DNA of 64,000 nucleotides from positions 8,179 through 72,178 of the forward strand of contig JANWKE010000054.1 in the NCBI GenBank assembly GCA_025451535.1, in the 5' to 3' direction. The translations under genes were made by a program, and so were the position numbers. Numbering within the stretch: position 1 is the first letter of the stretch; each line of letters starts with the position of its first letter. The notes below the pieces were generated by a model. That model made no database searches. It was given only the letters and a program-made list of their open reading frames with translations, and had not been told where the DNA came from. This stretch comes from Verrucomicrobiia bacterium. GTDB taxonomy: Bacteria > Verrucomicrobiota > Verrucomicrobiia > Limisphaerales > UBA11358. Below, piece by piece: positions 475-53,468 of the stretch.

Positions 475-1524
475 TTACCGTTTATCCTCCAGTTTACGCC
501 AGGCAATGTCGGGCCAGCCGTTGGGATCCCAGCCCAGCGGCAGGATGGCCAGCATGGATTGACCGTGCCCGAGGCCATTGTAAAAATGGCAGCTGAACCA
601 GTCGGCGCCCTTTTCAGAATAAATGCCGGATTGGCCGGGACCGATGAATGGCCCGCGCGTGCTCAAAAAAGAGCTGCCCCCACCGGTAACTAAATCCGCT
701 CCACTCTTGTCCAGGTAGGGGCCGGTGATTTGCCGGCTGCGCCCGACGCGGATTTCGTACGTGCTGTTCGTGCCCCGGCAGCACAACCCCCAGTTCACAA
801 ACAGATAGTAATAATCATCGTGGTGATAAATATACGACGCCTCGATGGAATCGTTGAAGGCGAGCGAATATATCGGGGAGTCTGGAGCAATGCGCTTGCC
901 GGTATCAGGGTCCAGTTGGACCATTTTAATACCGCCCCAAAACGAACCGAAGGCAAGCCAAAGGCGGCCTTGGGCGTCCAGCGAAGCCGCCGGATCAATT
1001 GTGTTGAAGTCATCCTTGCTGGTCGATTGAACCACGAGTCCCTGATCCGACCATTTAAATTCGGGATCCGCAGGGTCAAGGGTGGGGCTGGTCGCCAGGC
1101 CGATGGCTGAATCATTTCTTCCGAACGACGAAACCGCGTAATAAAGCAAATAGCGATCACCCAGATGAATGATGTCCGGCGCCCAATAATAGATCCAATG
1201 ATTCCGCGGCACCGCCTTGGCCGTCCAGGCCGGGGCATTTGTAAAAACGGCGGGCCCGTGTTCCCATTTTATCATGTCCTTGGAGTGATAAGAGGGAATA
1301 CCGCGACCGGTGTAAAAAACCCAGTACTCGTCCTTGCATTTGGTGATGGCGGACGGGTCATGTACCCGCACGTCGCGGTTGCCGAGCATCGCGGGCGCCA
1401 CCGGAACGGTATTGGATTGAGTCTGCGCCTGGCTGGAGTGTGCCGAAAACAAAATCCCCGACGTCAAAGTGAGCACTTTGATTGCCCGTTTGAGACCTTC
1501 AGAATAATGTCGGATACGTTTCAT
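475..1524 (-). CDS. Glycoside hydrolase family 43, endo-alpha-1,5-L-arabinanase-like, secreted
   Basis: 349-aa ORF with signal peptide MKRIRHYSEGLKRAIKVLTLTSGILFSAHSSQAQ. GH43 propeller motifs: VHDPSAI, YWAPDIIH, SAIGLATS, IDPA, GSFWGGIKMVQLD, IEASYIYHHDDYYYLFVNWGLCC, STYEIRVGRS. The same catalytic module occurs in the 4525 and 8103 paralogs. Confidence 0.9.
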   Translation of the reverse strand: MKRIRHYSEGLKRAIKVLTLTSGILFSAHSSQAQTQSNTVPVAPAMLGNRDVRVHDPSAITKCKDEYWVFYTGRGIPSYHSKDMIKWEHGPAVFTNAPAWTAKAVPRNHWIYYWAPDIIHLGDRYLLYYAVSSFGRNDSAIGLATSPTLDPADPEFKWSDQGLVVQSTSKDDFNTIDPAASLDAQGRLWLAFGSFWGGIKMVQLDPDTGKRIAPDSPIYSLAFNDSIEASYIYHHDDYYYLFVNWGLCCRGTNSTYEIRVGRSRQITGPYLDKSGADLVTGGGSSFLSTRGPFIGPGQSGIYSEKGADWFSCHFYNGLGHGQSMLAILPLGWDPNGWPDIAWRKLEDKR

Positions 1525-1539
1525 GAGCGTTCAGCGAAA

Positions 1540-4488: not shown

Positions 4489-4524
4489 AAAAAATGTGGG
4501 CTCCCGGCCGTTGCCTCGGGAAAA

Positions 4525-7500: not shown

Positions 7501-7977
7501 GACGTTGGCTGACGCACTGCCATACATGTTCACCGTCACATACGGCCCACCGGAATACCACCAGGTGTCACCCAGCGCCAGCCCGACGCCGGTCACTGAA
7601 GAACCGTTAAACAAATTGACAATGCTGGGGTGCGTCGGGTCGTTTTGTACCGGCGCCAGGTAATTGCGCCAGTTCAGCGTGCCATAAACGTTGAGGCCGG
7701 CGCCAAACTCCGGGCCATAAACCATGTCGCCAGTTCCGCTGCCGGGGCTTTCGACCTCGCCGTTGGTAATCGTCATCACTGACCAGCCATTGGCGGAATC
7801 CAGCCACACATTGGCATCCACACTGGATGACGGCACCCCCACGGGATTCCAGTTGTTCGGGTTGCCCCACAAGCCATCCCCGCCCAAGCCTGACCAGTGT
7901 GAATCCTGGGCGGAAACGTTGTGAATCGCGCAGACCGCCAGAACAACAGAGATTGCAACACCGATGCTTGCTTTCAT
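4525..7977 (-). CDS. Secreted GH43 arabinanase-like enzyme with Ig-like domain and two LamG (concanavalin-like lectin) domains
   Basis: The ORF-track start at 7995 is TTG. The ATG at 7977 gives the signal peptide MKASIGVAISVVLAVCAIHNVSA. GH43 motifs: FLHDPGTIIKDGSFYF, FWAPDEAYF, SAIGLVTTP, IDPSI, GSYSDGILVMQLD, YYYLFVNFGGCC. Two LamG_3-like repeats: WVKWNGGAIWQRVFDFGTGTTNYFFLTP and FWAGFGANGSWARVFSFGDS. Confidence 0.85.
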   Translation of the reverse strand: MKASIGVAISVVLAVCAIHNVSAQDSHWSGLGGDGLWGNPNNWNPVGVPSSSVDANVWLDSANGWSVMTITNGEVESPGSGTGDMVYGPEFGAGLNVYGTLNWRNYLAPVQNDPTHPSIVNLFNGSSVTGVGLALGDTWWYSGGPYVTVNMYGSASANVNYLYWGGHVNLYGGTLSIASGVTVQTVDAVSDATRSMNLTGGELLLPGSFTSTVNNWISRGILLAYGKAQDTSDIIIDETAVPDRTRVTTVLLGGSLQGIHLGSFPTNVTLGMSQPLPVLGDYPNVQNAVLTALDPATLPGTIIYQSSNPDVLAVDTNGLVAAVTAGSATLTAALGAFSSTNSVTVTVVSNANPVPYLPQEQAVLGFAFLHDPGTIIKDGSFYFEYGDGQGIGAIYSTDLRNWNYTYPVFPGNPPAWTTNAVPGFNGYFWAPDEAYFNGRYNLYYACSDWGTINSAIGLVTTPSLVAPTWTDQGKVIQSNPVGQTTTNTDLTAYNCIDPSILVDTNGTIWMSFGSYSDGILVMQLDPVTGKRISANSPIYRVSNNGPTFFSNTEEGSCLYQRGGYYYLFVNFGGCCAGVNSTYNIRVGRSASVTGPYYDRAGVNLTNGGGTMFLESSGRFIGPGHAAILNDNGTNWFTYHYYDGNNGGTATLGIGWLTWSMDGWPVFTNDWSAFYPFNVDAGDASGLYNGALENGAVITNEPGFGHVLNLNGTTQYVLLPAPVANASTFAAWVKWNGGAIWQRVFDFGTGTTNYFFLTPRSSAGTMRFAITINGNGSEQQINAPSALPTNSWCHVAVTLDGAKGLLYLNGIPVATNNNLTIRPWQTLARTNYIGHSQFADPLFGGEISSFRIFGRALSGAEIKDLAYAPPALAHRYSFTSGAPNAWDSIGMAHGMLQGNAAITNNALNLTGASGDYVNLPGGLVSGSSATTIEFWAGFGANGSWARVFSFGDSSNSAGQNYLAFSPHAAANNAQLSLATTAGASSLNTPGIFDNLALQVDCVLDPANNYSAIYTNGVLLNTATNATPPLNSVSTAWSFIGRSLFGTDASLNATIDEFRIYDGRLTPAQLAASDLAGPNALALPISLGMSATASNLTLTWPAYAIGFTAQSSPALGANAVWSPIGVSPALGNNVWRLTLPMTNNAVFIRLVR

Positions 7978-8068
7978 TTTTACTGTCTTGACCAAACTTG
8001 CCCTTGCGAGCAGTCCGTGAAAACGCCCAGGCTCAAACCCAGCATTCCAGCGAGGAACGATTCAAATT

Positions 8069-8092
8069 TCCTGCTTTCATCCTGAAGCAGGA
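8069..8092 (-). terminator. Weak hairpin downstream of the 8103-10943 gene
   Basis: TCCTGCTT / tcatcctg / AAGCAGGA forms an 8-bp stem. On the minus strand it is followed by AATTTGAAT, which is only moderately U-rich. Confidence 0.35.
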
Positions 8093-8102
8093 AGGCCAAT
8101 CA

Positions 8103-10943
8103 CTAAGGCGTCTGTAATCGGAAGAATGTCTGGTTGTTGGCCGGCGTCAGTGACAGAAAGTTGATGCCGTTCGTGGCCGTCGGCGCGCCGGCAACCGGCG
8201 TCCACACCGCACCAACGCCAAGACCGGGAGAACTGTACAGTCCCAGGCCATTATTGAAGGCCGGCCAGTTGAGCGTCAAACCCGCCAACCCACCGGCCAA
8301 CCCCAGCGACGAGGCTGTAATCTGTTCAACCGGCAGCGTCCGGGATGAAATCAACACCGAGTCCATCTGGCCGTTGAAATACGGGTCGGCGGAAAACTGG
8401 CTGCGACCCAAAAAGTCCTGGGCACCTTCAACATCAGATGGCAGCACATAAGTGCCGGCATTCACCGCCACCGCCTGGCCGTTGACATACATCACCGCTT
8501 CGCTGCCATTGAGCGTCACCGCCACGTGGGTCCAGGCGCCGACCGGCAACGGGCTCGGCGCGGCTAAAAACCAGATGGCATTCCCACCGTCCGGTGTAAT
8601 CTGAAATTGCAGAGCACCGGTATTGGCCTTGGCGGTCAGCATCGCGTAACTGCCGGTTCCCGTGCCAAAATCAAAAATGCGTTGCCACGCATTGCCGCCG
8701 TTCCATTTGACCCAGGCCGAAAACGTTCGCAGGGCGCCGATGCCCGAAGGCAGGCTGACATACTGGCTCGCCCCGCTTAAATTCAGCACCGAACCCCGGA
8801 TCGGGTCGGATACCGTGGAGGCACCGTTCACCAGGGTACCGTTGAAATTCCCATTCGCATCCACGGCGCCATTGTCAAAGGGATAGCTTGCCATCCACAC
8901 GCCATTCGTCGGCCCCGGCAGCACGTTCACAGAGTTGGTTGCGCTGTCTCCCAACCCGTCCGTGGCCGCCAGCAGAATCTGGTAGAATCCATTGGTGGTC
9001 GTCGGGTCCGACGGCACCACAAAGCTGCCACTTCCCAGACCGGTGAGCGGCCCCAGCACAACGTTGGTTGTGTTCGTTCCGCAAAATTCGACTGTCCAGG
9101 TAAGATTGGTGGCAGGCAGCGGAACATCAGCGTAATCGACAGCAGTCCCGGCGAAGGGAATCACGCTGCCAGGCTGGAAATACACCTGCGCCGTCGGTGC
9201 AGAGATTTGAGGTTGCGGCGCGACAATTTCCGCCGGTGCCAATGCCCGGCCATAAAGGCGGACGGACCCGATTTGGCCGTTGAAATAGGGATCGGCGGAG
9301 AACTGGCTCCGGCCAAACCAGACGTTGGTCGGCGCAATATCAGGAACGGTGAGCGTCATTGAAGTATTGGTAATCACGGGCGTCCCGTTCACGTACATGA
9401 TGCCGCGCGAACCGTCGGTCGTCACCGCCACTTGCGTCCAGGCCCCGACCGTTGCCGCGCCCGGAGCGTCGAGGTGCTGTTCGCCACCCATGCCGGACGA
9501 AGTTATGGTGAACCTCATCACGCCGGAGGCGTTTTGGGGTGTGAGAAACGCATAACTGTTGGTGGTGCGGCCGAAATCAAAAACGCGCTGCCAGGGTAAG
9601 CCACCGTTCCACTTGAACACGGTAATAAAACTACCGGCGTTGGCCGCGCCGCCGGGCAGGCTGACGAACTGATTGGTCCCGTTCAGGGCCAGCACATTGC
9701 CAAGCAGCGGGTCATAATAGACGTCGGCACCATTCTTCATTAACCCGTAATACTGGCCGTTGTCGTCACTCGCATCCATGTGGAAATGGTAGAGCGCCGA
9801 CCAATCATTGGTAAACGTCGGCCAGCCATCCGCCGTCCAGGACAATGGCTCCACATCAAAGGTCGGTGCCCCATTATTATTGCCGTCGTAATAGTGGTAG
9901 CCAAAATATTCAACTCCAGCGCCCTCCAGAATTCCCATCTGCCCCGGCCCGATAAATTTGCCCGTGGTTTTGAGAAAGAGTGTACCGCCGCCGGAATTCA
10001 TGGCGACACCGTTGTGGTCCACGAAAGGCCCGAAAATTCTTGTGCTGCGCCCCACCCGGATGTTGTAGGTGCTGTTCACGCCGGCGCAGCACGTGCCCCA
10101 GTTGACAAACAAATAAAAGTAATTCCCATGGTGGTAGAGATACGAGGCTTCAATCGGGTCGCCGGAGGCGGTGTTGAAAGCCTCATGCACCGGCGTGGAG
10201 TTGGTGGCATTGACCAGCCCGGTGGCCGGATCGAGCTGAACCATGTAAATACCATTCCAAAATGAGCCAAAGGACATCCACAGGTTGCTGGACGCATCGA
10301 AAGCGACGCTGGGGTCAATGCAATTGTACGCCGAGCCGTTCATAGACCGGATCACGGGCCCCTGATCAGTCCATTGATAGCTCGGGTTGCCGGGATCAAG
10401 CGTCGGATTCGTGGCCAATCCAATGGCCGAAACCTGGCTGCCAAAAGTTGAAACCGCATAATAAAGGTGGTAGAGGCCGTTGAAATAAGTAATGTCCGGC
10501 GCCCAAATGAACCCGGTAAAACCGGGCACATCGTTCGTCGTCCAATTTGGCGGGTTGGCGAATACACTCGGACCCGCGGCCCAATACGTCAGGTCGGCTG
10601 ACGATTTTGAGATGATGCCCTGCCCCGTTCCAAACACATAATAACGCCCATTGTACGGGATCACCGCCGAAGGATCGTGAATGCCCAGGTTCCCGCGCAA
10701 ATCCGACGGTGCGGCTGTGAGGAGCTGACTCGAACCCAGTAAAACTCCCAGAAGAATCGTTGGCAGCCAGCCAAAAGCAAATATGCCCGGCAAAAAAACA
10801 GGCCTGGTGGGTAATTTGAAAATATCAACGGGTAACAAATTCACAATTTGCGGCTTACGAGCTAATATATCATCAATGGGATTTTGCCAAAACGCCAATT
10901 TGCGAATTAAAAACGCCAAAAAACGCAGCGGTTTAGAGGGCAA
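8103..10943 (-). CDS. Secreted GH43 arabinanase-like enzyme with two LamG domains (tandem paralog of 4525-7977)
   Basis: 946-aa ORF. GH43 motifs: IHDPSAVIPYNGRYYVF, IWAPDITYF, SAIGLATNP, IDPSV, GSFWNGIYMVQLD, YFYLFVNWGTCC. LamG repeats: VFKWNGGLPWQRVFDFG and WVKWNGGNAWQRIFDFGTGTG. The true start is uncertain: the ORF starts at TTG 10943, and the hydrophobic signal-like segment GIFAFGWLPTILLGVLLGSS lies about 50 codons in with no ATG nearby. Confidence 0.8.
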   Translation of the reverse strand: MPSKPLRFLAFLIRKLAFWQNPIDDILARKPQIVNLLPVDIFKLPTRPVFLPGIFAFGWLPTILLGVLLGSSQLLTAAPSDLRGNLGIHDPSAVIPYNGRYYVFGTGQGIISKSSADLTYWAAGPSVFANPPNWTTNDVPGFTGFIWAPDITYFNGLYHLYYAVSTFGSQVSAIGLATNPTLDPGNPSYQWTDQGPVIRSMNGSAYNCIDPSVAFDASSNLWMSFGSFWNGIYMVQLDPATGLVNATNSTPVHEAFNTASGDPIEASYLYHHGNYFYLFVNWGTCCAGVNSTYNIRVGRSTRIFGPFVDHNGVAMNSGGGTLFLKTTGKFIGPGQMGILEGAGVEYFGYHYYDGNNNGAPTFDVEPLSWTADGWPTFTNDWSALYHFHMDASDDNGQYYGLMKNGADVYYDPLLGNVLALNGTNQFVSLPGGAANAGSFITVFKWNGGLPWQRVFDFGRTTNSYAFLTPQNASGVMRFTITSSGMGGEQHLDAPGAATVGAWTQVAVTTDGSRGIMYVNGTPVITNTSMTLTVPDIAPTNVWFGRSQFSADPYFNGQIGSVRLYGRALAPAEIVAPQPQISAPTAQVYFQPGSVIPFAGTAVDYADVPLPATNLTWTVEFCGTNTTNVVLGPLTGLGSGSFVVPSDPTTTNGFYQILLAATDGLGDSATNSVNVLPGPTNGVWMASYPFDNGAVDANGNFNGTLVNGASTVSDPIRGSVLNLSGASQYVSLPSGIGALRTFSAWVKWNGGNAWQRIFDFGTGTGSYAMLTAKANTGALQFQITPDGGNAIWFLAAPSPLPVGAWTHVAVTLNGSEAVMYVNGQAVAVNAGTYVLPSDVEGAQDFLGRSQFSADPYFNGQMDSVLISSRTLPVEQITASSLGLAGGLAGLTLNWPAFNNGLGLYSSPGLGVGAVWTPVAGAPTATNGINFLSLTPANNQTFFRLQTP

Positions 10944-11156
10944 AACGAGGGAAGAAGCAGCGCCTCATTTTCAAATGTGACGCCGGGGTCATGGTTGGTG
11001 GACAACGGCCCCAACACGATGGTTTTATTCTTATGGAATGGGAAGCGTTGCCAGTCAAAAACCCATTCACGCGTGATGGGAGTTCGCTGTCTGCCAGAAC
11101 TCCTCAGCAGACGAACCCGATTTGTACAATTGATTGGATGGTTCGCGAATATATTT

Positions 11157-13508
11157 TCACGGCCCGATTTGGAGGCGGTAATAGCGCGCCGGGTCGGTGA
11201 AATTAGTGTCCGTCAAAATTAATGGCATGGCGGGCGAATTGGTGGTGAACAACGCCTGCCAATCCATCAAGTTGGTTGAAGTCCACAAGGTATAATCGGG
11301 TCCTTGCGGTCCATTGACGGTCAGGCTGACTTGCCCGGAAGAATAATTTACTGAACCTATCACCGGATTGGTCACGGCGTTGACGACCACATTGAAGCCG
11401 GTGGTCGCGCTTAAAGGCGGCGAGCCGCTATCGGTGACCTGGATTTGAATCACGTTGGTCGTATTCGCCTGGTTCACGAGCGGGCGCCAACTGAAGAGTC
11501 CGCTGGTATTGACGGTCGCGTTGGCCGGGAATGTATTTGCGGCGCTGAATGTCAGCGTCTGCGCCGGCACATCTGAATCGCTGGCGGTATTCGTCACCAG
11601 CAAGGTCACTCCCACATTGACCGTTTGATCGGGCACGGCTCCAATCGTCGGCGGTGTGTTGACTTGTCCAACCACTCCCTGTCCCACAAATGTTACCACG
11701 CTCAGGGCCGGCACATCGTAGGTAAACGAGGAATTGGTGACGTTCACCGGCGTTTGTGGGGCCAGCGAAAGCGTGGCTGAAGTAATCCACGGGGTTACGA
11801 AAGCGGCGGTAAAATTGGTCAGGTTGAATGTCTGAATCACATCGGTGCCCGGGTTGGTATTGACCACGACAATCGCAAAGGCGGCAGAGTTTGTGTCTTT
11901 GTAAGCGCTGATCAAAGCGGACGCCTGGGATGAGGTGGCATCGATGCGGTAAAAGTTGGGGCGAACAAACCGGCTGTATTGGCCAAAGGTGAACAGACGT
12001 TTAGCGGGCCCGGCGCTGGTATCCAACAATCCCTGGTTTCCGGTGGCGACGAGCCACCAATAATGATAGGCATTGGCCTGGGCCTGGGTCATGTAAAGGT
12101 AAATCCGTTGCGCGTAATAAACGCCATTGGCAATGCTGCTGTCGCTGCCCGAAAGCAGCGCGACTTCCGTCTCCCATAACGCTTTGCCATAAGAAGGAAT
12201 CGCCGCCGGCGTTGATTGATCTCCGACCCCATTGTTCGCCACATAATTATGATTGGCAATAATCCCCACTTCCGCAGCCGCAGTGGGATCGCTCATCGTC
12301 GGTCCCGCCAAATTGCGCGGGTCGGTCCAGTTCTGGCTTTCGGGAAGCATAATTTTAGTCGAGGCGTAACCCTTGACTGATAATGCATTGTAAAGGTTCG
12401 TAACAAAATCGTGAAATTGCGCCCCCGACCATTGGCACGCTTCATAAGAGGTCACATTGGCATCCGGCTCGTTCTGGATCGAAAGGGCGTAAATGTTCAC
12501 GCCGTAAGTCGTGTTCATGCTGGCGACATAGTTGGCGAGTTGGCTGGCGTAATTCAGATTAGTGATATCATTTCCGCTGCCGAGATAACTGCCGCCGTTT
12601 ATCCCGCTACCGGTGGCCACACCGGAATCATAAATGTCGTTCACGCTTTTGAACCCCGCCGCCGGAGTCCAGGGCGTGCTCCAAACTTTGGCGCCCCGGG
12701 CCTGGGCCATTTGCATAATGCTGGTCTCGACAGTAGTAAGCGTTTCGCCCGCCGAAGTCGTGTTCCCGAATACGATATGGTTGCGCAGCAAAGAAAGCCC
12801 GGCACCATTATAGGTTCCCCCCAGATAACCGATATTGTTGTTGGTGGAAAAAAGCAGGTCGGCTTCGGCGGTGGTCCAACTGCTGCTCCAGGCCGACGAA
12901 GCGCCAAAACCGTCAATGCGCTGGTGCACATTGTTCCAATCCACGATCGACACGCCATTGGTGGGCGGATTGGTGACAATCGTTTGTCCGCTGAAATTGG
13001 CGTCATCAAGATAGTAGGAGGCGTTCGAGCTGCTGGTCACCTCCGCATAAAAATTCAGCGCGCTGACGGTGCCCGAAGGATTGTAGGGGTATTGTCCGGA
13101 AAGCTGCGTCCAGGCGGTCGCAGACACGGAACCCGAAGCAATCTGGGCATAAGACGTTCCGCTCCCATCCGTTTTTTGCATCGTCAAGTGCATGGTCTGG
13201 CTCCCGCCACTGACCAGCCTGACCCACGCCGAAACATTGTAAGTCTGGCCCGATTGGAGGACGCCCGCAAACGACTGGGCGATGCCCATGTAGGTGGCCG
13301 TGCGGCCTGATACCTGGGCGGCATAGGTGCCGGCATGGACCTGACTGGTCTCGACCGAGATGGTTGGCGTACCGAACGCGAACCAGCCCGAGGTGTTGCC
13401 GGTTTCAAATCCGGGATTCGTTACCAGGTTTTGCGCGGCAGCCGTCCCGGCCTGCAGAACAAATGCGATGACCAGTCCTGCTGCGTAATGTTCTAAGATT
13501 TTTTTCAT
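11157..13508 (-). CDS. Glycoside hydrolase family 30 (xylanase/glucosylceramidase-like) with N-terminal CBM4_9/22-like module and C-terminal cadherin/He_PIG-like Ig domain
   Basis: 783-aa ORF with signal peptide MKKILEHYAAGLVIAFVLQAGTAAAQ. CBM-like segment: NLVTNPGFETGNTSGWFAFG...YYLDDANF. GH30 motifs: IDGFGASSAW, YALSIQNEPD (acid/base), KALWETEV (nucleophile). Confidence 0.85.
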   Translation of the reverse strand: MKKILEHYAAGLVIAFVLQAGTAAAQNLVTNPGFETGNTSGWFAFGTPTISVETSQVHAGTYAAQVSGRTATYMGIAQSFAGVLQSGQTYNVSAWVRLVSGGSQTMHLTMQKTDGSGTSYAQIASGSVSATAWTQLSGQYPYNPSGTVSALNFYAEVTSSSNASYYLDDANFSGQTIVTNPPTNGVSIVDWNNVHQRIDGFGASSAWSSSWTTAEADLLFSTNNNIGYLGGTYNGAGLSLLRNHIVFGNTTSAGETLTTVETSIMQMAQARGAKVWSTPWTPAAGFKSVNDIYDSGVATGSGINGGSYLGSGNDITNLNYASQLANYVASMNTTYGVNIYALSIQNEPDANVTSYEACQWSGAQFHDFVTNLYNALSVKGYASTKIMLPESQNWTDPRNLAGPTMSDPTAAAEVGIIANHNYVANNGVGDQSTPAAIPSYGKALWETEVALLSGSDSSIANGVYYAQRIYLYMTQAQANAYHYWWLVATGNQGLLDTSAGPAKRLFTFGQYSRFVRPNFYRIDATSSQASALISAYKDTNSAAFAIVVVNTNPGTDVIQTFNLTNFTAAFVTPWITSATLSLAPQTPVNVTNSSFTYDVPALSVVTFVGQGVVGQVNTPPTIGAVPDQTVNVGVTLLVTNTASDSDVPAQTLTFSAANTFPANATVNTSGLFSWRPLVNQANTTNVIQIQVTDSGSPPLSATTGFNVVVNAVTNPVIGSVNYSSGQVSLTVNGPQGPDYTLWTSTNLMDWQALFTTNSPAMPLILTDTNFTDPARYYRLQIGP

Positions 13509-31860: not shown

Positions 31861-33717
31861 TCAAAACGGTTGGATTAATCGGAAATAGCTTGCACTACTG
31901 CCCACCGGATAATTCGCCGAGCTTTGACCGTACGTGCCGGACACATCCAGCCACCCACCGGTGGTCAGGCTCGTGGCTGTCTGCAAGTTGACGCCGGGGA
32001 GACCCAGCCAGGTAATCGGGACATTGCCCCCCGACTTTGGACCGATGGCCAGATTACCGAGCGAAGGTTCCTGAACCATGCTGCCGAAGGTATCCTGCGG
32101 CAGGACACAGGTCCCCGTGGACCGGATGTAGCGGATATGATTGGTGCCGACACCGAGGGCCTCGATGGCCAGGCCGCTGTTATTACCGAAAGTATATTGA
32201 TAGGAAAGCTGCAAGGGGTATCCCGCCGGAATCGGCACTGTGATCGTATAGATCTCGCTGCCCAGCGGATTGTTTTGCATCTGGAAATTGCCAAGAGCAT
32301 TGGTATAGCCGCCAGGCCCAGTTACTATTAGCGAGTTGGTCCACGCATCAAATGCGTAGTTCCCCAACGAATTCGTCGTATCCAGACCGTTCAGATAAAC
32401 AGAGTCCAGACTCGGATTGAATACTGACGAATCCGTTCCCACTGCGTTGGTCATGTTCACAGTGAAGGTCACCATGGTGGGGACGGGCAGCACGGTGTTG
32501 CTTGACAGGTCACTGTAACGAACAACGGGCAGCGGAAGGCTGCTGGTCGATACATTAGGCATAACGAATTGCCGGTTTTGGTTGCCACCAAGAACAGAGG
32601 GATTGCCCGGATAGGTGTGGACGGGATTATTTTCATAATTACCCGCGCCATTCAAAAACTTGAATTGCGTCGTGGCACCGTATCCATTGGTGATGATCGC
32701 GGTCGCATAGTAAATGTTGGTGTTCGCGGCACTGGGATTATTTGTGCAAAGCTGGCTGCTCCAATTATTGAAATCTCCCTGCAAATAAACCTGCTGACCC
32801 GCGGCCAACGTTCCGTTCCAGGTTTGAACACTCATGTCCACTGCGAAGGTGAATGTATTGGTGCCAATCGGAGCGTAGGGTGCATCGCTGAAAAGGACAA
32901 TCGGCAGTGTTTGCGCATTGCTTAACACGAAACAGAAGCGATTCTCGTTGTTTTGCGCAATTCCGTTAAGTTTGCTGACAGATTCGTACAGGCCGCCCGT
33001 AATTCTATACTTGAATTCGCCAACCGACCCCGGTGACCCAGCTGCGCCCGCATTTGGGAAAGTTCCGACATACACATTGGAAGTCACCAAATTAAATTGA
33101 TTGGTTCTCAGGATCGTCGGGTCATTGGTCAAAATGGCGGCACTGTCGGCCCAACCGACGAACTGGCCAATGGCTTCCACCGTCATCGTGTTAGGATTGA
33201 AAACCCCGAGTTGAATCTGCTGGGCCATGTCCACCTGGAAGGTACAGTTGCCGGCCACGACAACCCCGGCCGAGGGGCCGGCATCATTGAACCACTCGAC
33301 GGGCAGGAACAGGCTCTGCTGGCCGCTGCCCGCCGGAAGCAGCGTGGTCCGGTTGTCGTTGTTATTCGCCGTCGTTTCATAGCCGCTACTGGGAAAGTTC
33401 GGGACAAAATATTTCCATTGTAGCTGGGAACCGTTGGTGGAAATGGTATCATCATAGGTCCCGATGTATAGATTGGTATTGGCCGCGGCAGGATTGTTGG
33501 TCAACTGAACCTGAAAGATTTGCGGGTGTCCGGCAAGAAAAGGATCAAACGCCTTCGCTTGCACCGTCTGCACGCCGTTGGTGAAGGTGCCGCTTTGAAC
33601 CTGATACGTCATGTCACACTGAAAGGTGATGAGCGTATCCGCATACGCCAACTGGACGGCGCCAACCAGAAGTCCGGCGCAAAACATGGATGAATAAACA
33701 GCTGTTTTGGTCTTCAT
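31861..33717 (-). CDS. Secreted protein with four tandem CBM48/CBM20-like beta-sandwich modules plus the shared C-terminal module
   Basis: The ATG at 33717 gives the signal peptide MKTKTAVYSSMFCAGLLVGAVQLAYA. Four repeats begin ITFQCDM, CTFQVDM, FTFAVDM and VTFTVNM. Repeat 3 (QQVYLQGDFNNWSS...TTQFKFLNG) resembles, from memory, the AMPK-beta glycogen-binding CBM48 signature (VYLSGSFNNWS...YKF). Confidence 0.7.
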   Translation of the reverse strand: MKTKTAVYSSMFCAGLLVGAVQLAYADTLITFQCDMTYQVQSGTFTNGVQTVQAKAFDPFLAGHPQIFQVQLTNNPAAANTNLYIGTYDDTISTNGSQLQWKYFVPNFPSSGYETTANNNDNRTTLLPAGSGQQSLFLPVEWFNDAGPSAGVVVAGNCTFQVDMAQQIQLGVFNPNTMTVEAIGQFVGWADSAAILTNDPTILRTNQFNLVTSNVYVGTFPNAGAAGSPGSVGEFKYRITGGLYESVSKLNGIAQNNENRFCFVLSNAQTLPIVLFSDAPYAPIGTNTFTFAVDMSVQTWNGTLAAGQQVYLQGDFNNWSSQLCTNNPSAANTNIYYATAIITNGYGATTQFKFLNGAGNYENNPVHTYPGNPSVLGGNQNRQFVMPNVSTSSLPLPVVRYSDLSSNTVLPVPTMVTFTVNMTNAVGTDSSVFNPSLDSVYLNGLDTTNSLGNYAFDAWTNSLIVTGPGGYTNALGNFQMQNNPLGSEIYTITVPIPAGYPLQLSYQYTFGNNSGLAIEALGVGTNHIRYIRSTGTCVLPQDTFGSMVQEPSLGNLAIGPKSGGNVPITWLGLPGVNLQTATSLTTGGWLDVSGTYGQSSANYPVGSSASYFRLIQPF

Positions 33718-33776
33718 AATTTTTTTATCAAATGGGTTCTCTGCAGTAAAAATATCATTCACACAGTTAAAAACCA

Positions 33777-33792
33777 CCGCATGTTTGTGCGG
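33777..33792. promoter_or_regulatory. Alpha-glucan box, site 3 (perfect half-sites)
   Basis: CCGCATGTTTGTGCGG, which reads CCGCACAAACATGCGG on the other strand. Lies 60 nt upstream of ATG 33717. Confidence 0.6.
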
Positions 33793-33876
33793 CGTGGTCA
33801 AGGTCGAATTCCAAATGCCTGCGAGGCGGTCAACGGAATTGGTGGCCTGCCATCCGGGCGAAAAGACCGAAATCAG

Positions 33877-34050
33877 GTAGTGGTACGTTCTGAAATTTCA
33901 AGGCAGGGTCATCGCGCTGCGATGACCACGCCGCGTTCAGCGGCGCAACGAAACACTGGATAAATCAGGTTGGTTCAGGTTCCGTCCGCTGAACGCGGAC
34001 GGTGACGCCGCAGCGCGGCGTCCTTACCATGGCAGAACGTACCACTACCC
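33877..34050. repeat. 174-bp nested imperfect palindrome
   Basis: The perfect 17-bp termini GGTAGTGGTACGTTCTG (33877-33893) and CAGAACGTACCACTACC (34034-34050) are reverse complements. Four local hairpins lie inside, at 33908-33928, 33930-33946, 33983-34003 and 34005-34023. A perfect 13-nt complementarity links 33932-33944 to 33987-33999. Confidence 0.8.
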
Positions 34051-34094
34051 AAAATCATCCCTTCAGTGCCATGACCGCAAAAGGCTTCCGGAGT

Positions 34095-34724
34095 TCAGCC
34101 CCGCAGGTATTTGACCACGGCCTCCGTCCGCGAATGAACGTGCAGCTTTTCGTAAACGGTCCGCACGTAACTGCGCACGGTATCAATGCTGATTTTCATG
34201 CGGTCGGCGATTTCCTTGTAAGCGTAGCCATTCGAAAGCTGGTCGAGAAATTCCCTCTCGCCCGGAGTCAGCCCCGACAGCGAGGAGGGGGCGCCGTCCG
34301 CCGGCCTGGTAAAAAACTGAACGACGCGGCGGGCCAGTTGCGGCGTCATGGGCGAACCACCGGAGTGGACATCGCGGATGGCTTCCAACAATCGTGCCGA
34401 CGCCGTGCGTTTGAGCAGATACCCGCTCGCGCCGGCTTTGAGTGAATTGAACAACGAGTCGCTGTCTTCGTAAACCGTCAGCATCAGAAATTGCACACCC
34501 GGCAGGGCGGCCTTCAATTGCTGGACACACTCCACCCCTTTCATGCCGGGCAGGTTGATGTCCATGAGCACCACGTCGGGCGGATGGCGCGGGATTTCCT
34601 TCAACGCCGTTTCCGCGTTCGCGTAGTCGCCGGCCAGTTTGAAATTCGGCGCGCGGCGGATGAGTGCGGCGAGGCTGGTGCGGATGCCTTCGTCGTCGTC
34701 CACAATGGCAACTTTGATCTGCAT
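34095..34724 (-). CDS. Response regulator, NarL/LuxR family (REC + LuxR-type HTH)
   Basis: The ATG at 34724 gives MQIKVAIVDDDEGIR.., then DVVLMDINLPGMKG. HTH: GYAYKEIADRMKISIDTVRSYVRTVYEKLHV. The ORF-track GTG at 34748 is an alternative start. Confidence 0.9.
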   Translation of the reverse strand: MQIKVAIVDDDEGIRTSLAALIRRAPNFKLAGDYANAETALKEIPRHPPDVVLMDINLPGMKGVECVQQLKAALPGVQFLMLTVYEDSDSLFNSLKAGASGYLLKRTASARLLEAIRDVHSGGSPMTPQLARRVVQFFTRPADGAPSSLSGLTPGEREFLDQLSNGYAYKEIADRMKISIDTVRSYVRTVYEKLHVHSRTEAVVKYLRG

Positions 34725-34811
34725 ATCCTGGGCAATGCTGGCAACCACACTATACCAATTACCCTAATCCGGGCGGATTCTCTACAGCATGAATGTGCGG
34801 CAAACTTGCGC

Positions 34812-48994: not shown

Positions 48995-49163
48995 TAGAAA
49001 TAAAAGGAAAGATAGCCGATATTTTTATGCCACCGCAAAGCCCGCAGCCATTTTATGAAACGCGCCGGAGCGGTGGTTTGTAGTTTACCCGATGTACAAT
49101 TTAAACATGTCTTGTCGTGCCAGTGACAAAAAAGCTTGTGAAGGTCCCCTGTCCCAACAGCCT

Positions 49164-52100
49164 ATGAAGCCGCATTTTTTTCATCCGGCAATTTCATTAA
49201 AGGGATTTTTCCGCCGGGCGGCTGCGGCAGCTTTGCTGGCGGGTTTGTCGGTGTTGGCCGTCCACCAGGTCCGCGGCGAGGGAATGCTGGAGTTGTTCCA
49301 GACGCCCTGGTCTGAGATTACTCAAAAGATGCCGGAGATTGCCGAGGCCGGCTACGACAGTTTGTGGCTGCCCAATCCGGCCAAGGGCAACAGCGGCAGT
49401 TATTCGGTCGGCTACGACCAGTTTGATCCGTTTGACCTGGGCAGCACCAACCAGCAGGGGACGATTGCCACCATGTATGGAACCGAGGACCAACTGATCC
49501 AGATGGTACAGACGGCCCATCGGTTCGGCATCCGCGTCTATTTCGACAATATCATGAATCACCGGTCCGGCACGGTGGCCGGCTATCCGGGCTCGGGCAC
49601 GCCGACGAATTATTACCCGGGCCTGATTCCGCAGGACTTTCATCTGCAAGTCGTCGCCGGCGGATTTAAAAACTGGCCGTCCATCGGCGATCCGTACTGG
49701 TGCACGACTTCGGTGGTGGAGGACCAGCCGTTGTTGGGCCTGTCCGACCTGGCACAGGAACCGGGCACCAACAATCTGAATTTTGGCTCCGCCGTCGGTA
49801 ACACAACTCCCAAGCCGGCTTTTATCCGGTTTCCGGGCCGGTCGGATTTGTACATGGATACCAATGGTCCTTTGCTGGGTTTGGGCTCCGGCACCGGCTG
49901 GCCATCGCCCGCGAACGGATATGGACCCTTAAACGGATGGCGTCCCTTTGACGGCCATGGCCAACCGGTGCCGGAAGACGTGTCGACCTATCTCTGCCGC
50001 GCAGTAGCGTGGACGCTTTACACTACCAAGTGCGACGGTTTCCGGCTGGATGCAGTGAAGCACGTGCCGGTGAACTTCTTCGGCAACGAAACCGGCCAGA
50101 CGGACGACCCGTCGTTCGGCGGCTACCTCGGCGCGGTTCAAGCGATGTATGATTACGTCCATGGCTATGGCAGCAACGACGTCGGTAACGGCTACCTTGA
50201 AACGGACGGCAACCGCAACAGCCTGTTCAACACGGAGTCGCCGCGCAACGACGCGATGCTCTTCGGCGAATACGAACCGTCAGCGCTGGTTGCCGGCGAG
50301 GACTTCAATGATTATCTCCAATCGGGCATGCGCCTGTGCAACTTTCCACTCTTCAGCCAGTTCAACAGCGCCCTCAACAACTACGGTGGCAGTCCGGGAC
50401 TTTACGGCATGGATGGCCGCGACTATATCCCACCGGGCGGCAACTGCGACGCCAACGGCAATTTCAGCGCGGCGCAGGCGGTCAACATGCCGCAAACACA
50501 GGACAACGGCACCTGTTGCCCGGCGAATGAAACCCTGGAGAATTCTTATTTCTTCATGCACGAAGGACTGCCGATGGTTTATTCCGATGGTTATAATCAT
50601 AATCTGGCCAGCCTGACCAACGGCAGCACGCCGATTGTTTCCTACGCCAATTACCTCGGCGAATTCGGCGACAACTCCATGCCAGACACGATGTACACGC
50701 ACAACCAACTATCCCGCGGCGGCACGCGTTCGCGCTGGAGCGATCAGAACATCATCGCCTTCGAGCGCTACGATTACCGCGACGTGGACCCGCCTTCGCA
50801 ATACGGAAATGCTGCTACCAATCCGGCGGCGACCGTGGTGTTCTACGCCATGAACGACAAGGGCGGCGGTTCCGGTGATATCGCCTTTGATGACGGCGTC
50901 AGCCGGACGAGCGACGGTTATTATCTGGTCGGCACCAACACCGTCAACGGCGCCAACACCGCCGACGTTTCCAGGCCCAATTCACGCGGCTGCGGACTGA
51001 TTGTCGGTTTTCCGCCGGGCACGCTGCTGACGCAATTATCCAGTGCCGGCGACGTGGCCGGCGGCAACCGCGCCTTCCACCAGTTACTGGTGCATGGCAC
51101 CACGACCAGTCTCACCACCGCTGCTTCCACCGCCAATGACCCCAACCCCGTCAACCGCCTGATTTACGTCAATACCACCCCGCCCGCCGGCTTTGGCGCC
51201 GTCGAACTGGTCGTTCCCAGCGACGCCTGGGTGCTCTACGGCGAACAATGGCCCGAACCCAGCCGCGCCAATCCTTCGACCAACGTCATCGCTTTCCGCC
51301 AGGGCGGTGTTCAGGTGCCGAATATCACGGTCTATCGCACAGATGGCGCCAACGGCGATCCAAACTATGATCCGACTTTCCCCTTCAAAATGCGTGGCGG
51401 CGTTGATCCCTACACCGGCCAGCCGGTCGTCGCTGCCGGCGAAGGCAACGTCTCCAATCTCACCTACGCCATCAATATTCCGGTGGTGACCAATGCGCTC
51501 TTTGACATCCTTGTCCGGAGCGACGCCTCGACATCCAACACGCTGGTCAAACTGGACGGTGGCATGGACCTCAACAGCCAGATGGGGCTGGGCCCGACGA
51601 ATATCCAGCCGGGCATCGCCCCGACCAATTTCCTTGACCTGCGCGACAACAAGCCCGCCTACACTGACGACCGCTTCCTGGGTTACGAACAAACGGCGTT
51701 CCAGTTCCGTAACGGCCCGGAGAAATTCGCCGCGCGAAATATTTTGAGCAATAACATCGTTTCGCTCGGCGCGGAGACGTATTATTACACCATCGGCGGC
51801 ACGAACACGGTCATTCCCGGCAGCGGCTTTGGCGCCGGCATCACCAACCAGACGGCAGTCTGGGTTTACCATGATCCGTCCGCACCCGTGACGGTCCTGA
51901 CCAATGTCAGTGTGCCCGTGGATCCCGCCAACCAGATGTCGCCGACCAATCCGGCAGCCGGCCAGTCGGTGGACATCTGGGTGAGGGCCGGCTACTCGCA
52001 GCAAGTCAACACCTGCTACCTTTACTACACCACCGACGGTTCAAATCCCGAAGGCGGCTTCGGCATCGGCAAGGGTACGACCCAGGTGGTGCCGGCGCAG

Positions 52101-53468
52101 CGCGTGAACTCCGACAGCGGGCAAGGCAACATTGACTGGTGGAAGGGCACCATTCCCGGCCAGGCCAATGGCGCCCAGGTGCGTTACAAGGCCGCGCTGT
52201 TCAGCGGCGGCAGTTACGGTTTCTCCGTCGGTAACACCACGAATTGGCCAAGCATCCAGCCGGTTTCCGGCGCCGAGCCTGCCCGGTCCAAGCTCTTTGG
52301 CCTGACGCAGGCAGCCATCACGAATTTCAATCCGGCTAACGCGGTGGTCTGGTTGCACAACGATCTCAATCCGGCGAATACCACCGTCGGTTTGCAGTCC
52401 GGTTTCCACATCCTCCATGCCCGGACTTTCCTGCCGGTGATCAATTACACCAATCAAAACTACGTCTATGCCAACCAGGCGCAGGTGTACAATACGTTCG
52501 CGCAAACCTTTTACTACGAAGCCGGGCCGCCCACGGGCGTGATTGTCTCGCCATCAAGTGATGGAACTTCGGTCTCCAGCAGCGTCCTTTCCGTGGTTGT
52601 CCGTACCGACAGCACAGTGACCGGCGTTCAATTCAACGTCCAGGACAGCGACCCTAACAACGACGACCTCATCACCCATCAGGCCAATGGCAACGGCAAC
52701 GACACCAACGGCAATCCGATTTTTGTGAGCGCCACCCAGGTCGTGCCCAACCAGAGCCTGAATCTGCAATACCCGAGCGATCCGCAGGAATTCCGGCTTG
52801 TTTATACCAACGTGGCCTCCAGCGGCACCGCCACCATCAGCGTGCGGCTCTCCGATTATGCGACCAGCGTCTATACCAATGAGGTCACGGTCTTGACCCG
52901 CACGGTCAACACGCTCGCGCCGCCGCAAACCGTCATTATTTCCAGCCCGGCAACCAATAACACCATTGTTCCGTTCAGCAGCAACCTTGTCTATCTGATC
53001 CAGACTTGCTTCGGCACCAGCCTGGTCTCGGCCGTCTCCAATTTCGACATTACCATCAATGGCATCCTCCAGCCGCAATCCTCCTATTTCATCCGTCCGG
53101 TGGGCACCGTGCCCGGTTGTCCCGGCATGAACTCGCTGTTCTATAATTGGAACATCACTTCGGGCGGCGTCTATAACATTCAAGCGACCTATAGCAACGG
53201 CATTGTCCTGAGCGATAACAAGACCGTGATTGTCACGCTGCCGCTCCAAATCACCAGCCTGAGCAACGTCGACCCCGCCGGTGGCAACCCATTGATTGTT
53301 TGGGGCAGTACACCGGGTGCCAATTACCAGGTTCTCGCTACCACGAATCTGACCCAGCCGTTTCAGCCCATCGGCCCGGTTGTCACGACGAATGGATTCT
53401 CCGCCTCCCTGTACGACACGTCGCCGCCCGCGCCGCAAAAGTTTTACGAAATTGAAATAGTGCCCTGA
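49164..53468 (+). CDS. Giant secreted GH13 alpha-amylase-family enzyme with ~900-aa beta-rich C-terminal extension
   Basis: GH13 regions: VYFDNIMNHR (I), GFRLDAVKHV (II), LFGEYE (III). N-terminal AGYDSLWLPNP. The start is probably ATG 49164 (MKPHFFHPAISLKGFFRRAAAAALLAGLSVLAV, signal peptide); the ORF track starts at 49092. The extension contains a LYYTTDGSNPEG..GKGTT..WWKGTIPG domain that also occurs in the next gene. Confidence 0.85.
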   Translation: MKPHFFHPAISLKGFFRRAAAAALLAGLSVLAVHQVRGEGMLELFQTPWSEITQKMPEIAEAGYDSLWLPNPAKGNSGSYSVGYDQFDPFDLGSTNQQGTIATMYGTEDQLIQMVQTAHRFGIRVYFDNIMNHRSGTVAGYPGSGTPTNYYPGLIPQDFHLQVVAGGFKNWPSIGDPYWCTTSVVEDQPLLGLSDLAQEPGTNNLNFGSAVGNTTPKPAFIRFPGRSDLYMDTNGPLLGLGSGTGWPSPANGYGPLNGWRPFDGHGQPVPEDVSTYLCRAVAWTLYTTKCDGFRLDAVKHVPVNFFGNETGQTDDPSFGGYLGAVQAMYDYVHGYGSNDVGNGYLETDGNRNSLFNTESPRNDAMLFGEYEPSALVAGEDFNDYLQSGMRLCNFPLFSQFNSALNNYGGSPGLYGMDGRDYIPPGGNCDANGNFSAAQAVNMPQTQDNGTCCPANETLENSYFFMHEGLPMVYSDGYNHNLASLTNGSTPIVSYANYLGEFGDNSMPDTMYTHNQLSRGGTRSRWSDQNIIAFERYDYRDVDPPSQYGNAATNPAATVVFYAMNDKGGGSGDIAFDDGVSRTSDGYYLVGTNTVNGANTADVSRPNSRGCGLIVGFPPGTLLTQLSSAGDVAGGNRAFHQLLVHGTTTSLTTAASTANDPNPVNRLIYVNTTPPAGFGAVELVVPSDAWVLYGEQWPEPSRANPSTNVIAFRQGGVQVPNITVYRTDGANGDPNYDPTFPFKMRGGVDPYTGQPVVAAGEGNVSNLTYAINIPVVTNALFDILVRSDASTSNTLVKLDGGMDLNSQMGLGPTNIQPGIAPTNFLDLRDNKPAYTDDRFLGYEQTAFQFRNGPEKFAARNILSNNIVSLGAETYYYTIGGTNTVIPGSGFGAGITNQTAVWVYHDPSAPVTVLTNVSVPVDPANQMSPTNPAAGQSVDIWVRAGYSQQVNTCYLYYTTDGSNPEGGFGIGKGTTQVVPAQRVNSDSGQGNIDWWKGTIPGQANGAQVRYKAALFSGGSYGFSVGNTTNWPSIQPVSGAEPARSKLFGLTQAAITNFNPANAVVWLHNDLNPANTTVGLQSGFHILHARTFLPVINYTNQNYVYANQAQVYNTFAQTFYYEAGPPTGVIVSPSSDGTSVSSSVLSVVVRTDSTVTGVQFNVQDSDPNNDDLITHQANGNGNDTNGNPIFVSATQVVPNQSLNLQYPSDPQEFRLVYTNVASSGTATISVRLSDYATSVYTNEVTVLTRTVNTLAPPQTVIISSPATNNTIVPFSSNLVYLIQTCFGTSLVSAVSNFDITINGILQPQSSYFIRPVGTVPGCPGMNSLFYNWNITSGGVYNIQATYSNGIVLSDNKTVIVTLPLQITSLSNVDPAGGNPLIVWGSTPGANYQVLATTNLTQPFQPIGPVVTTNGFSASLYDTSPPAPQKFYEIEIVP

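What the first reader, a model, noticed from the sequence alone, without database searches (positions are those of the whole stretch)
33877..34050. 174-bp nested palindrome with mutually exclusive pairings between the two-component operon and the CBM operon promoter
Perfect 17-bp terminal inverted repeats (GGTAGTGGTACGTTCTG / CAGAACGTACCACTACC) enclose four GC-rich hairpins:
- H1 GGTCATCGC-gct-GCGATGACC
- H2 CGCCGC-gttca-GCGGCG
- H3 CCGTCCGC-tgaac-GCGGACGG
- H4 GACGCCGC-agc-GCGGCGTC

H2 and H3 also contain a perfect 13-nt complementarity to each other (CCGCGTTCAGCGG / CCGCTGAACGCGG). The element can therefore fold either as four local hairpins or as one long rod. The two halves are diverged inverted copies, H1 matching H4 and H2 matching H3.

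No ORF explains the element. It lies 44 nt downstream of the response-regulator stop and 85 nt upstream of box site 3. Possible roles are a strong bidirectional terminator or insulator, a MITE-like or REP-like mobile element, or a structured RNA or cruciform with a regulatory role. AAATCAGGT occurs both at the left border (33871) and at the centre (33963).
Basis: seen in the sequence. Interest (0 to 1): 0.6.

Follow-up and report, generated by a model that had tools for sequence, protein, structure and literature searches.

The report
Small non-coding transposon (MITE) insertion
The 174-bp nested palindrome is a copy of a small, non-coding mobile DNA element (a MITE) that inserted between two genes of an uncultured soil Verrucomicrobium, a common kind of element and not shown to be a dedicated regulatory device.

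Summary
It is 174 bp long, has perfect 17-bp terminal inverted repeats and contains four perfect GC-rich hairpins. H2 and H3 can either fold locally or pair with each other.

It is a MITE, a non-autonomous cut/copy-and-paste transposon.
- **Other copies:** three more 174-bp copies, 94-98% identical, lie in one Verrucomicrobiia MAG (GCA_035279985.1). One is at the orthologous site. Two are in unrelated housekeeping contexts and in either orientation.
- **Target-site duplications:** each independent insertion is flanked by its own 8-bp direct repeat (GAAAAGTT, CAAACGCG, TGATTTCG).
- **Absent in relatives:** orthologous loci in more distant relatives (82-85% protein identity) lack the element. 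Removing it in silico restores collinearity with them.
- **No coding capacity:** all six frames contain stops.
- **No RNA family or terminator signature:** there is no Rfam match, no terminator-type U-tract and no compensatory change between copies.

The insertion sits upstream of, and leaves intact, the conserved promoter/operator block of the downstream CBM-like gene.

The parent transposase was not found. The end GGTAGTG with an 8-bp duplication fits the IS1-type signature, but that is only a lead.

This is a new, low-copy member of a known kind. A local side-effect on read-through or RNA stability is possible but untested.

The parts
33868..33875 (.). Left copy of the 8-bp target-site duplication (CGAAATCA on +, TGATTTCG on -)
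   Evidence: It matches the right copy at 7 of 8 positions. The orthologous copy L015 has CGATTTCG/TGATTTCG, so the ancestral duplication was TGATTTCG.
33876..33892 (.). Left terminal inverted repeat GGTAGTGGTACGTTCTG
   Evidence: only two matches in the window, which are the two arms. It is conserved in all four copies apart from one substitution in L015.
33907..33927 (.). Hairpin H1, GGTCATCGC-gct-GCGATGACC. In the copies L004 and L005 it is preceded by GGTAG.
   Evidence: (I6). A solo copy of this module lies at L038 9341-9370.
33929..33945 (.). Hairpin H2, CGCCGC-gttca-GCGGCG. It can alternatively pair with H3.
   Evidence: (I4)
33946..33981 (.). Central AT-richer spacer. It holds 5 of the 14 sites that vary among the copies.
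33982..34002 (.). Hairpin H3, CCGTCCGC-tgaac-GCGGACGG
   Evidence: (I19)
34004..34022 (.). Hairpin H4, GACGCCGC-agc-GCGGCGTC
   Evidence: (I18)
34033..34049 (.). Right terminal inverted repeat CAGAACGTACCACTACC. The G at 34035 is derived; the other three copies have A.
34050..34057 (.). Right copy of the 8-bp target-site duplication (CAAAATCA on +)
34095..34748 (-). Context: upstream NarL/LuxR-type response regulator gene. Its stop codon lies 45 nt before the element.
   Evidence: Response_reg + GerE
33718..33833 (-). Context: conserved promoter/operator block of the downstream CBM-like gene, including the box CCGCACAAACATGCGG at 33777-33792. The insertion leaves it untouched.
   Evidence: (near-invariant in 5 orthologous loci)
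31861..33717 (-). Context: downstream gene for a 618-aa secreted protein. Its homologues carry starch-binding CBM domains.

Best explanation
The element is a MITE: a 174-bp non-coding, non-autonomous DNA transposon. A transposase encoded elsewhere in the genome is inferred to recognise the 17-bp terminal inverted repeats. It is inferred to be DDE-type, because its staggered cut of the target leaves an 8-bp duplication.

This copy inserted at TGATTTCG, 37 nt past the response-regulator stop and upstream of the operator/promoter block of the next gene. The insertion happened before the window's genome and MAG GCA_035279985.1 diverged.

The copies, the duplications and the absence from relatives are shown here. 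The transposase type and the trans-mobilisation are inferred. The strong dyad symmetry is a property of the transposon itself, namely two diverged inverted halves. It is not an adaptation of this locus. Any effect here, such as blocking read-through from the two-component operon or giving RNases a 3'-UTR hairpin to cleave, would be a by-product and is untested.
For: **Dispersed near-identical copies**
- Three further 174-bp copies are 94-98% identical. All lie in one Verrucomicrobiia MAG, on three contigs: L004 1693-1866, L005 4469-4642 (inverted) and L015 5668-5841.
- Their contexts are unrelated: after a xylulokinase stop codon, and between a small ORF and mnmE.

**Target-site duplications**
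- Each insertion site has its own 8-bp flanking direct repeat.
- L004 has GAAAAGTT twice and L005 has CAAACGCG twice, both perfect.
- The window has CGAAATCA/CAAAATCA, and the orthologous L015 has CGATTTCG/TGATTTCG.

**Absence from relatives**
- Orthologous intergenic regions of relatives at 85, 84 and 82% protein identity lack the element.
- L021 keeps a single TGATTTCa exactly where the window has the duplication.
- After in-silico excision of the element plus one duplication copy, both the window and L004 align across the junction with the empty relatives.

**No coding capacity or known RNA family**
- All six frames contain stops.
- There is no Rfam match.

**Pattern of variation**
- Of 14 variable sites among the copies, none is compensatory.

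**Fit to the published definition**
- Size, terminal repeat length and duplication length all fall within the published MITE definition (PMC11602168, PMC10969869).
Against: - No autonomous parent IS with these terminal repeats was found. None of the roughly 30 window genes is a transposase, none flanks the other copies, and none turned up in the collection scans.
- The known copy number is low: at least 3 in one MAG and 1 in this 64-kb window.
- The family was seen only in this lineage.
- The empty sites come from relatives whose intergenic DNA has otherwise diverged. The excision junctions are therefore supported but not base-perfect.
- Variable sites are mildly depleted in stems (4 of 14 against 55% expected, p = 0.04). 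This leaves room for some constraint on structure.
Confidence: 0.87

Rival explanations
1. It is a REP/REPIN-type element: two inverted REP-like units mobilised as single-stranded hairpins by a RAYT (IS200/IS605-like tyrosine/HUH) transposase.
For: - The termini read G-GTAG-TGG.
- In two of the four copies, H1 is directly preceded by GGTAG. That is a GTAG head followed by a 9-bp stem-loop, the signature of GTAG REPs.
- GTAG REPs are reported to be abundant in the verrucomicrobium Opitutus terrae (PMC3733652).
- A solo H1-like module occurs at L038 9341-9370 in a related genome.
- The whole element is a hairpin-forming doublet.
Against: - Three independent insertions each carry a different 8-bp target-site duplication. 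HUH/Y1 transposition does not produce duplications; this rests on established knowledge of IS200/IS605.
- The 17-bp termini are plain inverted repeats, not stem-loops.
- Copy number is low rather than tens to hundreds.
- No Y1 transposase is present in the window.
Confidence: 0.05
2. It is a host regulatory structure selected at this locus. It could be a bidirectional terminator or insulator, or a structured RNA switch using the alternative H2/H3 pairings, separating the two-component operon from the CBM-like gene promoter.
For: - The fold is very stable on both strands.
- The two alternative folds differ by only about 3 kcal/mol.
- It lies exactly between a regulator gene and a promoter carrying an over-represented operator-like box.
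- The insertion is retained in two diverged genomes.
- Variable sites are mildly depleted in stems (p = 0.04).
Against: - The same sequence sits at unrelated loci in both orientations.
- Relatives with the same operon and the same conserved promoter block lack it.
- No terminator-like site was called inside or at the end of the element. The 3' tail on the transcribed strand, UGAUUUCG, comes from the target site.
- There is no Rfam family and no compensatory change among copies.
Confidence: 0.07
3. It is an incidental palindrome or an assembly artefact.
For: Long palindromes do arise as assembly artefacts. The metagenome hit L014 may be one.
Against: - None of 200 shuffles folds as well.
- The same 174 bp was recovered in independent assemblies from NCBI and ENA, on four contigs.
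Confidence: 0.01

Closest known systems
Bacterial MITEs in general (Correia/NEMIS of Neisseria, ERIC of enterobacteria, RUP of S. pneumoniae, QMITE2 of Coxiella)
   Same: - Short and non-coding, with terminal inverted repeats and flanking target-site duplications.
- Intergenic, with dispersed near-identical copies.
- The transcript folds into a very stable rod. QMITE2 has 7-9-bp direct repeats, 23-29-bp terminal repeats and a ΔG of about -113 (PMC10969869).
   Different: - It is GC-rich (most MITEs are AT-rich) and low in copy number.
- Its duplication is 8 bp, not the TA of Correia or RUP.
- Its interior is made of four separate perfect hairpins.
- No sequence similarity to any of these elements was tested or is known.
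- It comes from an uncultured Verrucomicrobiia lineage.
IS1-family insertion sequences, as a possible parent
   Same: The ISfinder signature for IS1 is ends GGnnnTG with direct repeats of 8-9 bp (table reproduced in PMC10425158). This element starts GGTAGTG and makes 8-bp duplications.
   Different: - No transposase or full-length IS was found, so this remains a lead and not a test.
- From my own knowledge of ISfinder, other families that make 8-bp duplications (IS6, ISL3, IS256, IS66, IS1595) also have GG-initial ends.
GTAG-tagged REPs / REPINs (RAYT-associated)
   Same: - GC-rich extragenic hairpins with a GTAG-like head.
- An inverted doublet architecture.
- GTAG REPs are reported in Verrucomicrobia (PMC3733652).
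   Different: - It has 8-bp target-site duplications and 17-bp plain terminal repeats.
- Its copy number is low.
- No RAYT was seen.

Membership tests
MITE | Small (about 50-800 bp) with no coding capacity | tested here: met
   It is 174 bp, and all six frames contain stops.
MITE | Terminal inverted repeats of at least 10-15 bp | tested here: met
   The repeats match at 17 of 17 positions in the window and 16 of 17 in the other copies.
MITE | Flanking target-site duplication of fixed length and variable sequence | tested here: met
   Three independent sites each have an 8-bp duplication with a different sequence. Two are perfect and one is 7 of 8.
MITE | Several dispersed copies within one genome | tested here: met
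   Three contigs of MAG GCA_035279985.1 carry it. The total count is unknown because only exact-match scans were possible.
MITE | Presence/absence polymorphism (empty sites) | tested here: met
   - The element is absent from orthologous loci L021, L017 and L018.
- At the L004 site it is absent from L038 and L039.
- Collinearity is restored after in-silico excision.
- The flanks have diverged, so the junctions are approximate.
MITE | A cognate autonomous IS sharing the terminal repeats | tested here: inconclusive
   None was found in the window, the fetched loci or the collection scans. The source genome could not be searched as a whole.
IS1-family derivative | Ends GGnnnTG and direct repeats of 8-9 bp | tested here: met
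   The end is GGTAGTG and the duplication is 8 bp. The signature is quoted in PMC10425158. It is not specific to IS1.
IS1-family derivative | Mobilised by or derived from an InsAB'-type transposase gene | not testable with these tools
   No parent element is available.
REP/REPIN | Insertion without a target-site duplication | tested here: not met
   All sites carry 8-bp duplications.
REP/REPIN | A 20-40-bp palindromic unit with a GTAG or CGTC head | tested here: inconclusive
   H1 is preceded by GTAG in two of the four copies and by GCAG in the other two. H4 is preceded by GTAA.
REP/REPIN | Associated RAYT gene and high copy number | tested here: inconclusive
   No Y1 transposase was found among about 30 window ORFs. 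The window holds only one copy. The whole genome could not be searched.
Intrinsic terminator | GC-rich stem followed immediately by a U-tract | tested here: not met
   None of the four terminator-like sites in 33500-34400 lies in or at the end of the element. The tail on the minus strand is UGAUUUCG.
Any Rfam RNA family | Score at or above the gathering threshold | tested here: not met
   No match reaches a gathering score. The best overlapping matches have E-values of 2.8-4.3.

The most novel reading that the evidence does not exclude
The element could be a hybrid mobile element. It has a terminal-repeat and duplication-making (DDE-type) shell, but its interior is built from REP-like, GTAG-headed hairpins.

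Three observations leave this open:
- The stems of the two halves have diverged by compensated changes: H1 against H4 at 3 pairs, and H2 against H3 at 2 pairs.
- One H1 module exists on its own in a related genome.
- Substitutions among the copies mildly avoid stems.

Together these would mean the local hairpins are functionally required. They could serve transposition, or a retained host role as a two-state insulator or terminator between the two-component operon and its target promoter.
Probability: 0.1. Interest if true: 0.55.

Novelty: new member of a known kind. Interest (0 to 1): 0.28.

Why it matters
- **Annotation:** it explains an eye-catching structure and prevents it being annotated as a riboswitch, small RNA or dedicated terminator.
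- **A new family:** it documents a young, low-copy MITE family in uncultured soil Verrucomicrobiia, a phylum for which I know of few described transposable elements (one literature search returned no described MITE family there).
- **A strain marker:** the shared orthologous insertion links the window's genome to MAG GCA_035279985.1.
- **A natural experiment:** the insertion sits between a two-component system and the promoter it probably controls. Lineages with and without it could be compared to see whether a -100 kcal/mol hairpin in a 3' UTR changes operon insulation.

Tried and rejected
- **Genome scan, other hits:** apart from L004 and L005, the 11 other exact terminal-repeat hits are single. 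They lack an inverted partner and any interior similarity. About 69 chance hits would be expected in 596 Gb under uniform base composition.
- **Metagenome scan:** the gapped two-repeat pattern returned only L014. That is an unrelated long palindrome of about 30-bp tandem units in an iteron-like region.
- **Viral scans:** nothing real came back. The apparent 1340-bp 'IS-like' repeat pairs in L027, L028 and L035 lie inside an AT-rich phage structural gene.
- **Six-frame trick:** I searched the concatenated six-frame translation of the element against 5.8 billion proteins to catch spurious ORFs called in other copies. There were no hits.
- **Plasmid blastn:** no match.
- **Exact look-ups:** neither flanking window protein is on record, so the source genome is not in that collection.
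- **Literature string search:** the terminal-repeat string returned only unrelated papers.
- **AAATCAGGT repeat:** it is not a meaningful feature, because its left copy is target-site duplication plus terminal repeat.
- **Perfect terminal repeats as evidence of selection:** rejected. The G at 34035 is a derived change unique to this copy.

Full report
**1. The observation**

The element spans window 33876-34049 and is 174 bp long.

The 17-mer GGTAGTGGTACGTTCTG occurs exactly twice in the 64-kb window, as the two inverted ends. Shuffles give 0.03 matches.

The four perfect hairpins and the H2/H3 cross-pairing are all present:

| Feature | Coordinates |
|---|---|
| H1 | 33907-33927 |
| H2 | 33929-33945 |
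| H3 | 33982-34002 |
| H4 | 34004-34022 |
| 13-nt H2/H3 complementarity | 33931-33943 and 33986-33998 |

Either strand folds far better than shuffled controls. The minus strand gives -113.5 kcal/mol and the plus strand -102.6 kcal/mol, z = -10.6 and -8.8, with 0 of 200 shuffles as good.

Explicit energy evaluation shows the two pairing schemes are close. The MFE, with H2 paired to H3, is -100.8 kcal/mol. With H2 and H3 forced into local hairpins it is -97.2 kcal/mol. The other strand behaves the same way.

The left half aligns with the reverse complement of the right half at 65 of 93 columns. The 'two diverged inverted halves' reading is therefore correct.

**2. What it is**

An exact scan of 185,579 species-representative genomes for the terminal repeat gave 13 loci. 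Eleven are isolated chance matches. The other two, L004 and L005, are different contigs of one Verrucomicrobiia MAG, SMAG_U8790 (GCA_035279985.1). Each contains a complete 174-bp copy, and the two are in opposite orientations.

The closest homologue of the downstream window protein (P0001, 95% identity) is encoded by the same MAG. Its locus, L015, carries the element at the orthologous position.

The four copies differ at 4-11 of 174 positions.

Each independent insertion is bracketed by its own 8-bp direct repeat:

| Copy | Left / right flank |
|---|---|
| L004 | GAAAAGTT / GAAAAGTT |
| L005 | CAAACGCG / CAAACGCG |
| Window | CGAAATCA / CAAAATCA |
| L015 (orthologous to window) | CGATTTCG / TGATTTCG |

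The window and L015 flanks together reconstruct an ancestral TGATTTCG.

The neighbouring genes are unrelated among the three sites:
- At the window site, a response regulator and a CBM-like protein.
- At L004, xylulokinase and an epimerase.
- At L005, a small ORF and mnmE.

No frame is open through the element. No Rfam family matches.

These are the defining features of a MITE as set out in PMC11602168 and PMC10969869.

**3. Insertion polymorphism**

Orthologous loci with the same gene order were examined: GH31, histidine kinase, response regulator, CBM-like protein, N-methyl protein, TPR protein, amylase. The relatives at 85% (L021), 84% (L017) and 82% (L018/L019) protein identity have intergenic regions of 283, 249 and 158 bp and no element.

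L021 is conserved with the window from the response-regulator stop up to a single TGATTTCa. That is exactly where the window has its duplicated target.

Removing the element plus one duplication copy in silico lets the window align across the junction with L021. The same operation lets L004 align with its empty relative L038. The surrounding intergenic DNA has diverged, so these are good but not base-perfect empty sites.

The roughly 115 bp proximal to the downstream gene are almost invariant in all five loci, and the insertion lies just upstream of them. This block includes the box CCGCACAAACATGCGG. That box has 8 matches in the window with up to 3 mismatches, against 1.5 expected.

**4. Mechanism**

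*Shown:* the mobile-element anatomy, the dispersed copies, the 8-bp duplications and the absence from relatives.

*Inferred:* mobilisation in trans by a DDE-type transposase that binds the terminal repeats and makes 8-bp staggered target cuts.

The parent was not found.
- There is no transposase among about 30 window ORFs or near the other copies.
- There is no full-length element in any scan.

The terminus GGTAGTG with an 8-bp duplication fits the ISfinder IS1 signature of GGnnnTG ends and 8-9-bp direct repeats (quoted in PMC10425158). Several other families with 8-bp duplications also start with GG, so this is a lead and not a classification.

**5. Is the structure itself selected?**

Among the four copies, 14 sites vary. 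Only 4 fall in the 96 stem positions (binomial p = 0.04), and none is compensated.

The window's perfect 17/17 terminal repeat is a derived state. The G at 34035 is A in the other three copies.

Between the two halves, however, the homologous hairpins differ by changes present on both arms. H1 and H4 differ at 3 pairs, and H2 and H3 at 2 pairs. The master copy therefore already kept local hairpins rather than a perfect rod.

A solo H1-like module lies in a related genome at L038 9341-9370. It reads CAGGCAG followed by GGTCATTGC-gct-GCGATGACC, matches 28 of 30 positions, and scores E = 6e-5 in 354 kb.

In two copies H1 is preceded by GTAG, the head motif of RAYT-associated REPs, which are reported in Verrucomicrobia (PMC3733652). 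This keeps a REP-related origin of the interior conceivable. REP/REPIN membership nevertheless fails, because REP-type transposition leaves no duplication.

**6. Local consequence**

On the transcribed (minus) strand the element follows the response-regulator stop by 45 nt, so it would be part of that gene's 3' UTR.

No terminator-like site was called in or at the end of the element. The 3' tail, UGAUUUCG, is target-derived.

Effects like those documented for other MITEs are possible here but untested. Known examples are RNase III cleavage at Correia terminal repeats and RNase E exposure by ERIC (PMC10969869).

**7. Verdict**

This is a genuine, previously undescribed but ordinary kind of element: a low-copy MITE restricted, as far as the scans show, to one soil Verrucomicrobiia lineage. 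It is a new member of a known kind and of modest interest.

Noticed in passing
window 25043, 28419, 33777, 34785, 45348, 48979 (also 6891, 48726): The operator-like inverted repeat CCGCACAAACATGCGG has 8 matches with up to 3 mismatches, against 1.5 expected. It mostly lies in promoter regions of the alpha-glucan genes (amylases, CBM proteins, the two-component system). It is probably the binding site of the adjacent LuxR-type response regulator.
   Followed up: partly
window 49887-49975: An 89-bp imperfect palindrome (33-nt arms, 82% complementary) lies in frame inside the 1458-aa amylase-like ORF 49092-53468. It is the strongest other inverted repeat in the window and could be an intragenic palindromic insertion.
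   Followed up: no
L038 9341-9370: A solo copy of the MITE's H1 hairpin module with its 5' CAGGCAG leader (28 of 30 identical) lies in an intergenic region of a related genome, ERZ25039489 contig_125358. It is either a REP-like building block or a remnant of a decayed copy.
   Followed up: partly
L014 1040-1290 (soil metagenome Ga0247815_10045204): A long palindrome built of about 30-bp tandem units that contain GGTAGTGGTACGTTC sits in a non-coding region dense in GTGTACAC iteron-like repeats. Its interior is unrelated to the MITE, and it may be an origin-like region or an assembly artefact.
   Followed up: partly
window 1-64000: The window holds two glycan-utilisation regions. One has GH43, arabinofuranosidase and CBM4/9 genes (about 475-13500). 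The other is a large alpha-glucan/starch region with amylases, two GH31 genes, GH77 and CBM20/25/53 (about 23600-61000). Each region has two-component regulators. Pfam found no transposase among the ~30 largest non-overlapping ORFs, and Rfam found no RNA family at gathering score; tRNAs were not scanned.
   Followed up: partly
window 34050-34094 (minus strand): A small conserved hairpin, CGGGG-cugaa-CUCCG, overlaps the response-regulator stop codon and is followed by GAAGCCUUUUG. It is conserved in L015 and L021 and may be the operon's own weak terminator, pre-dating the MITE.
   Followed up: no
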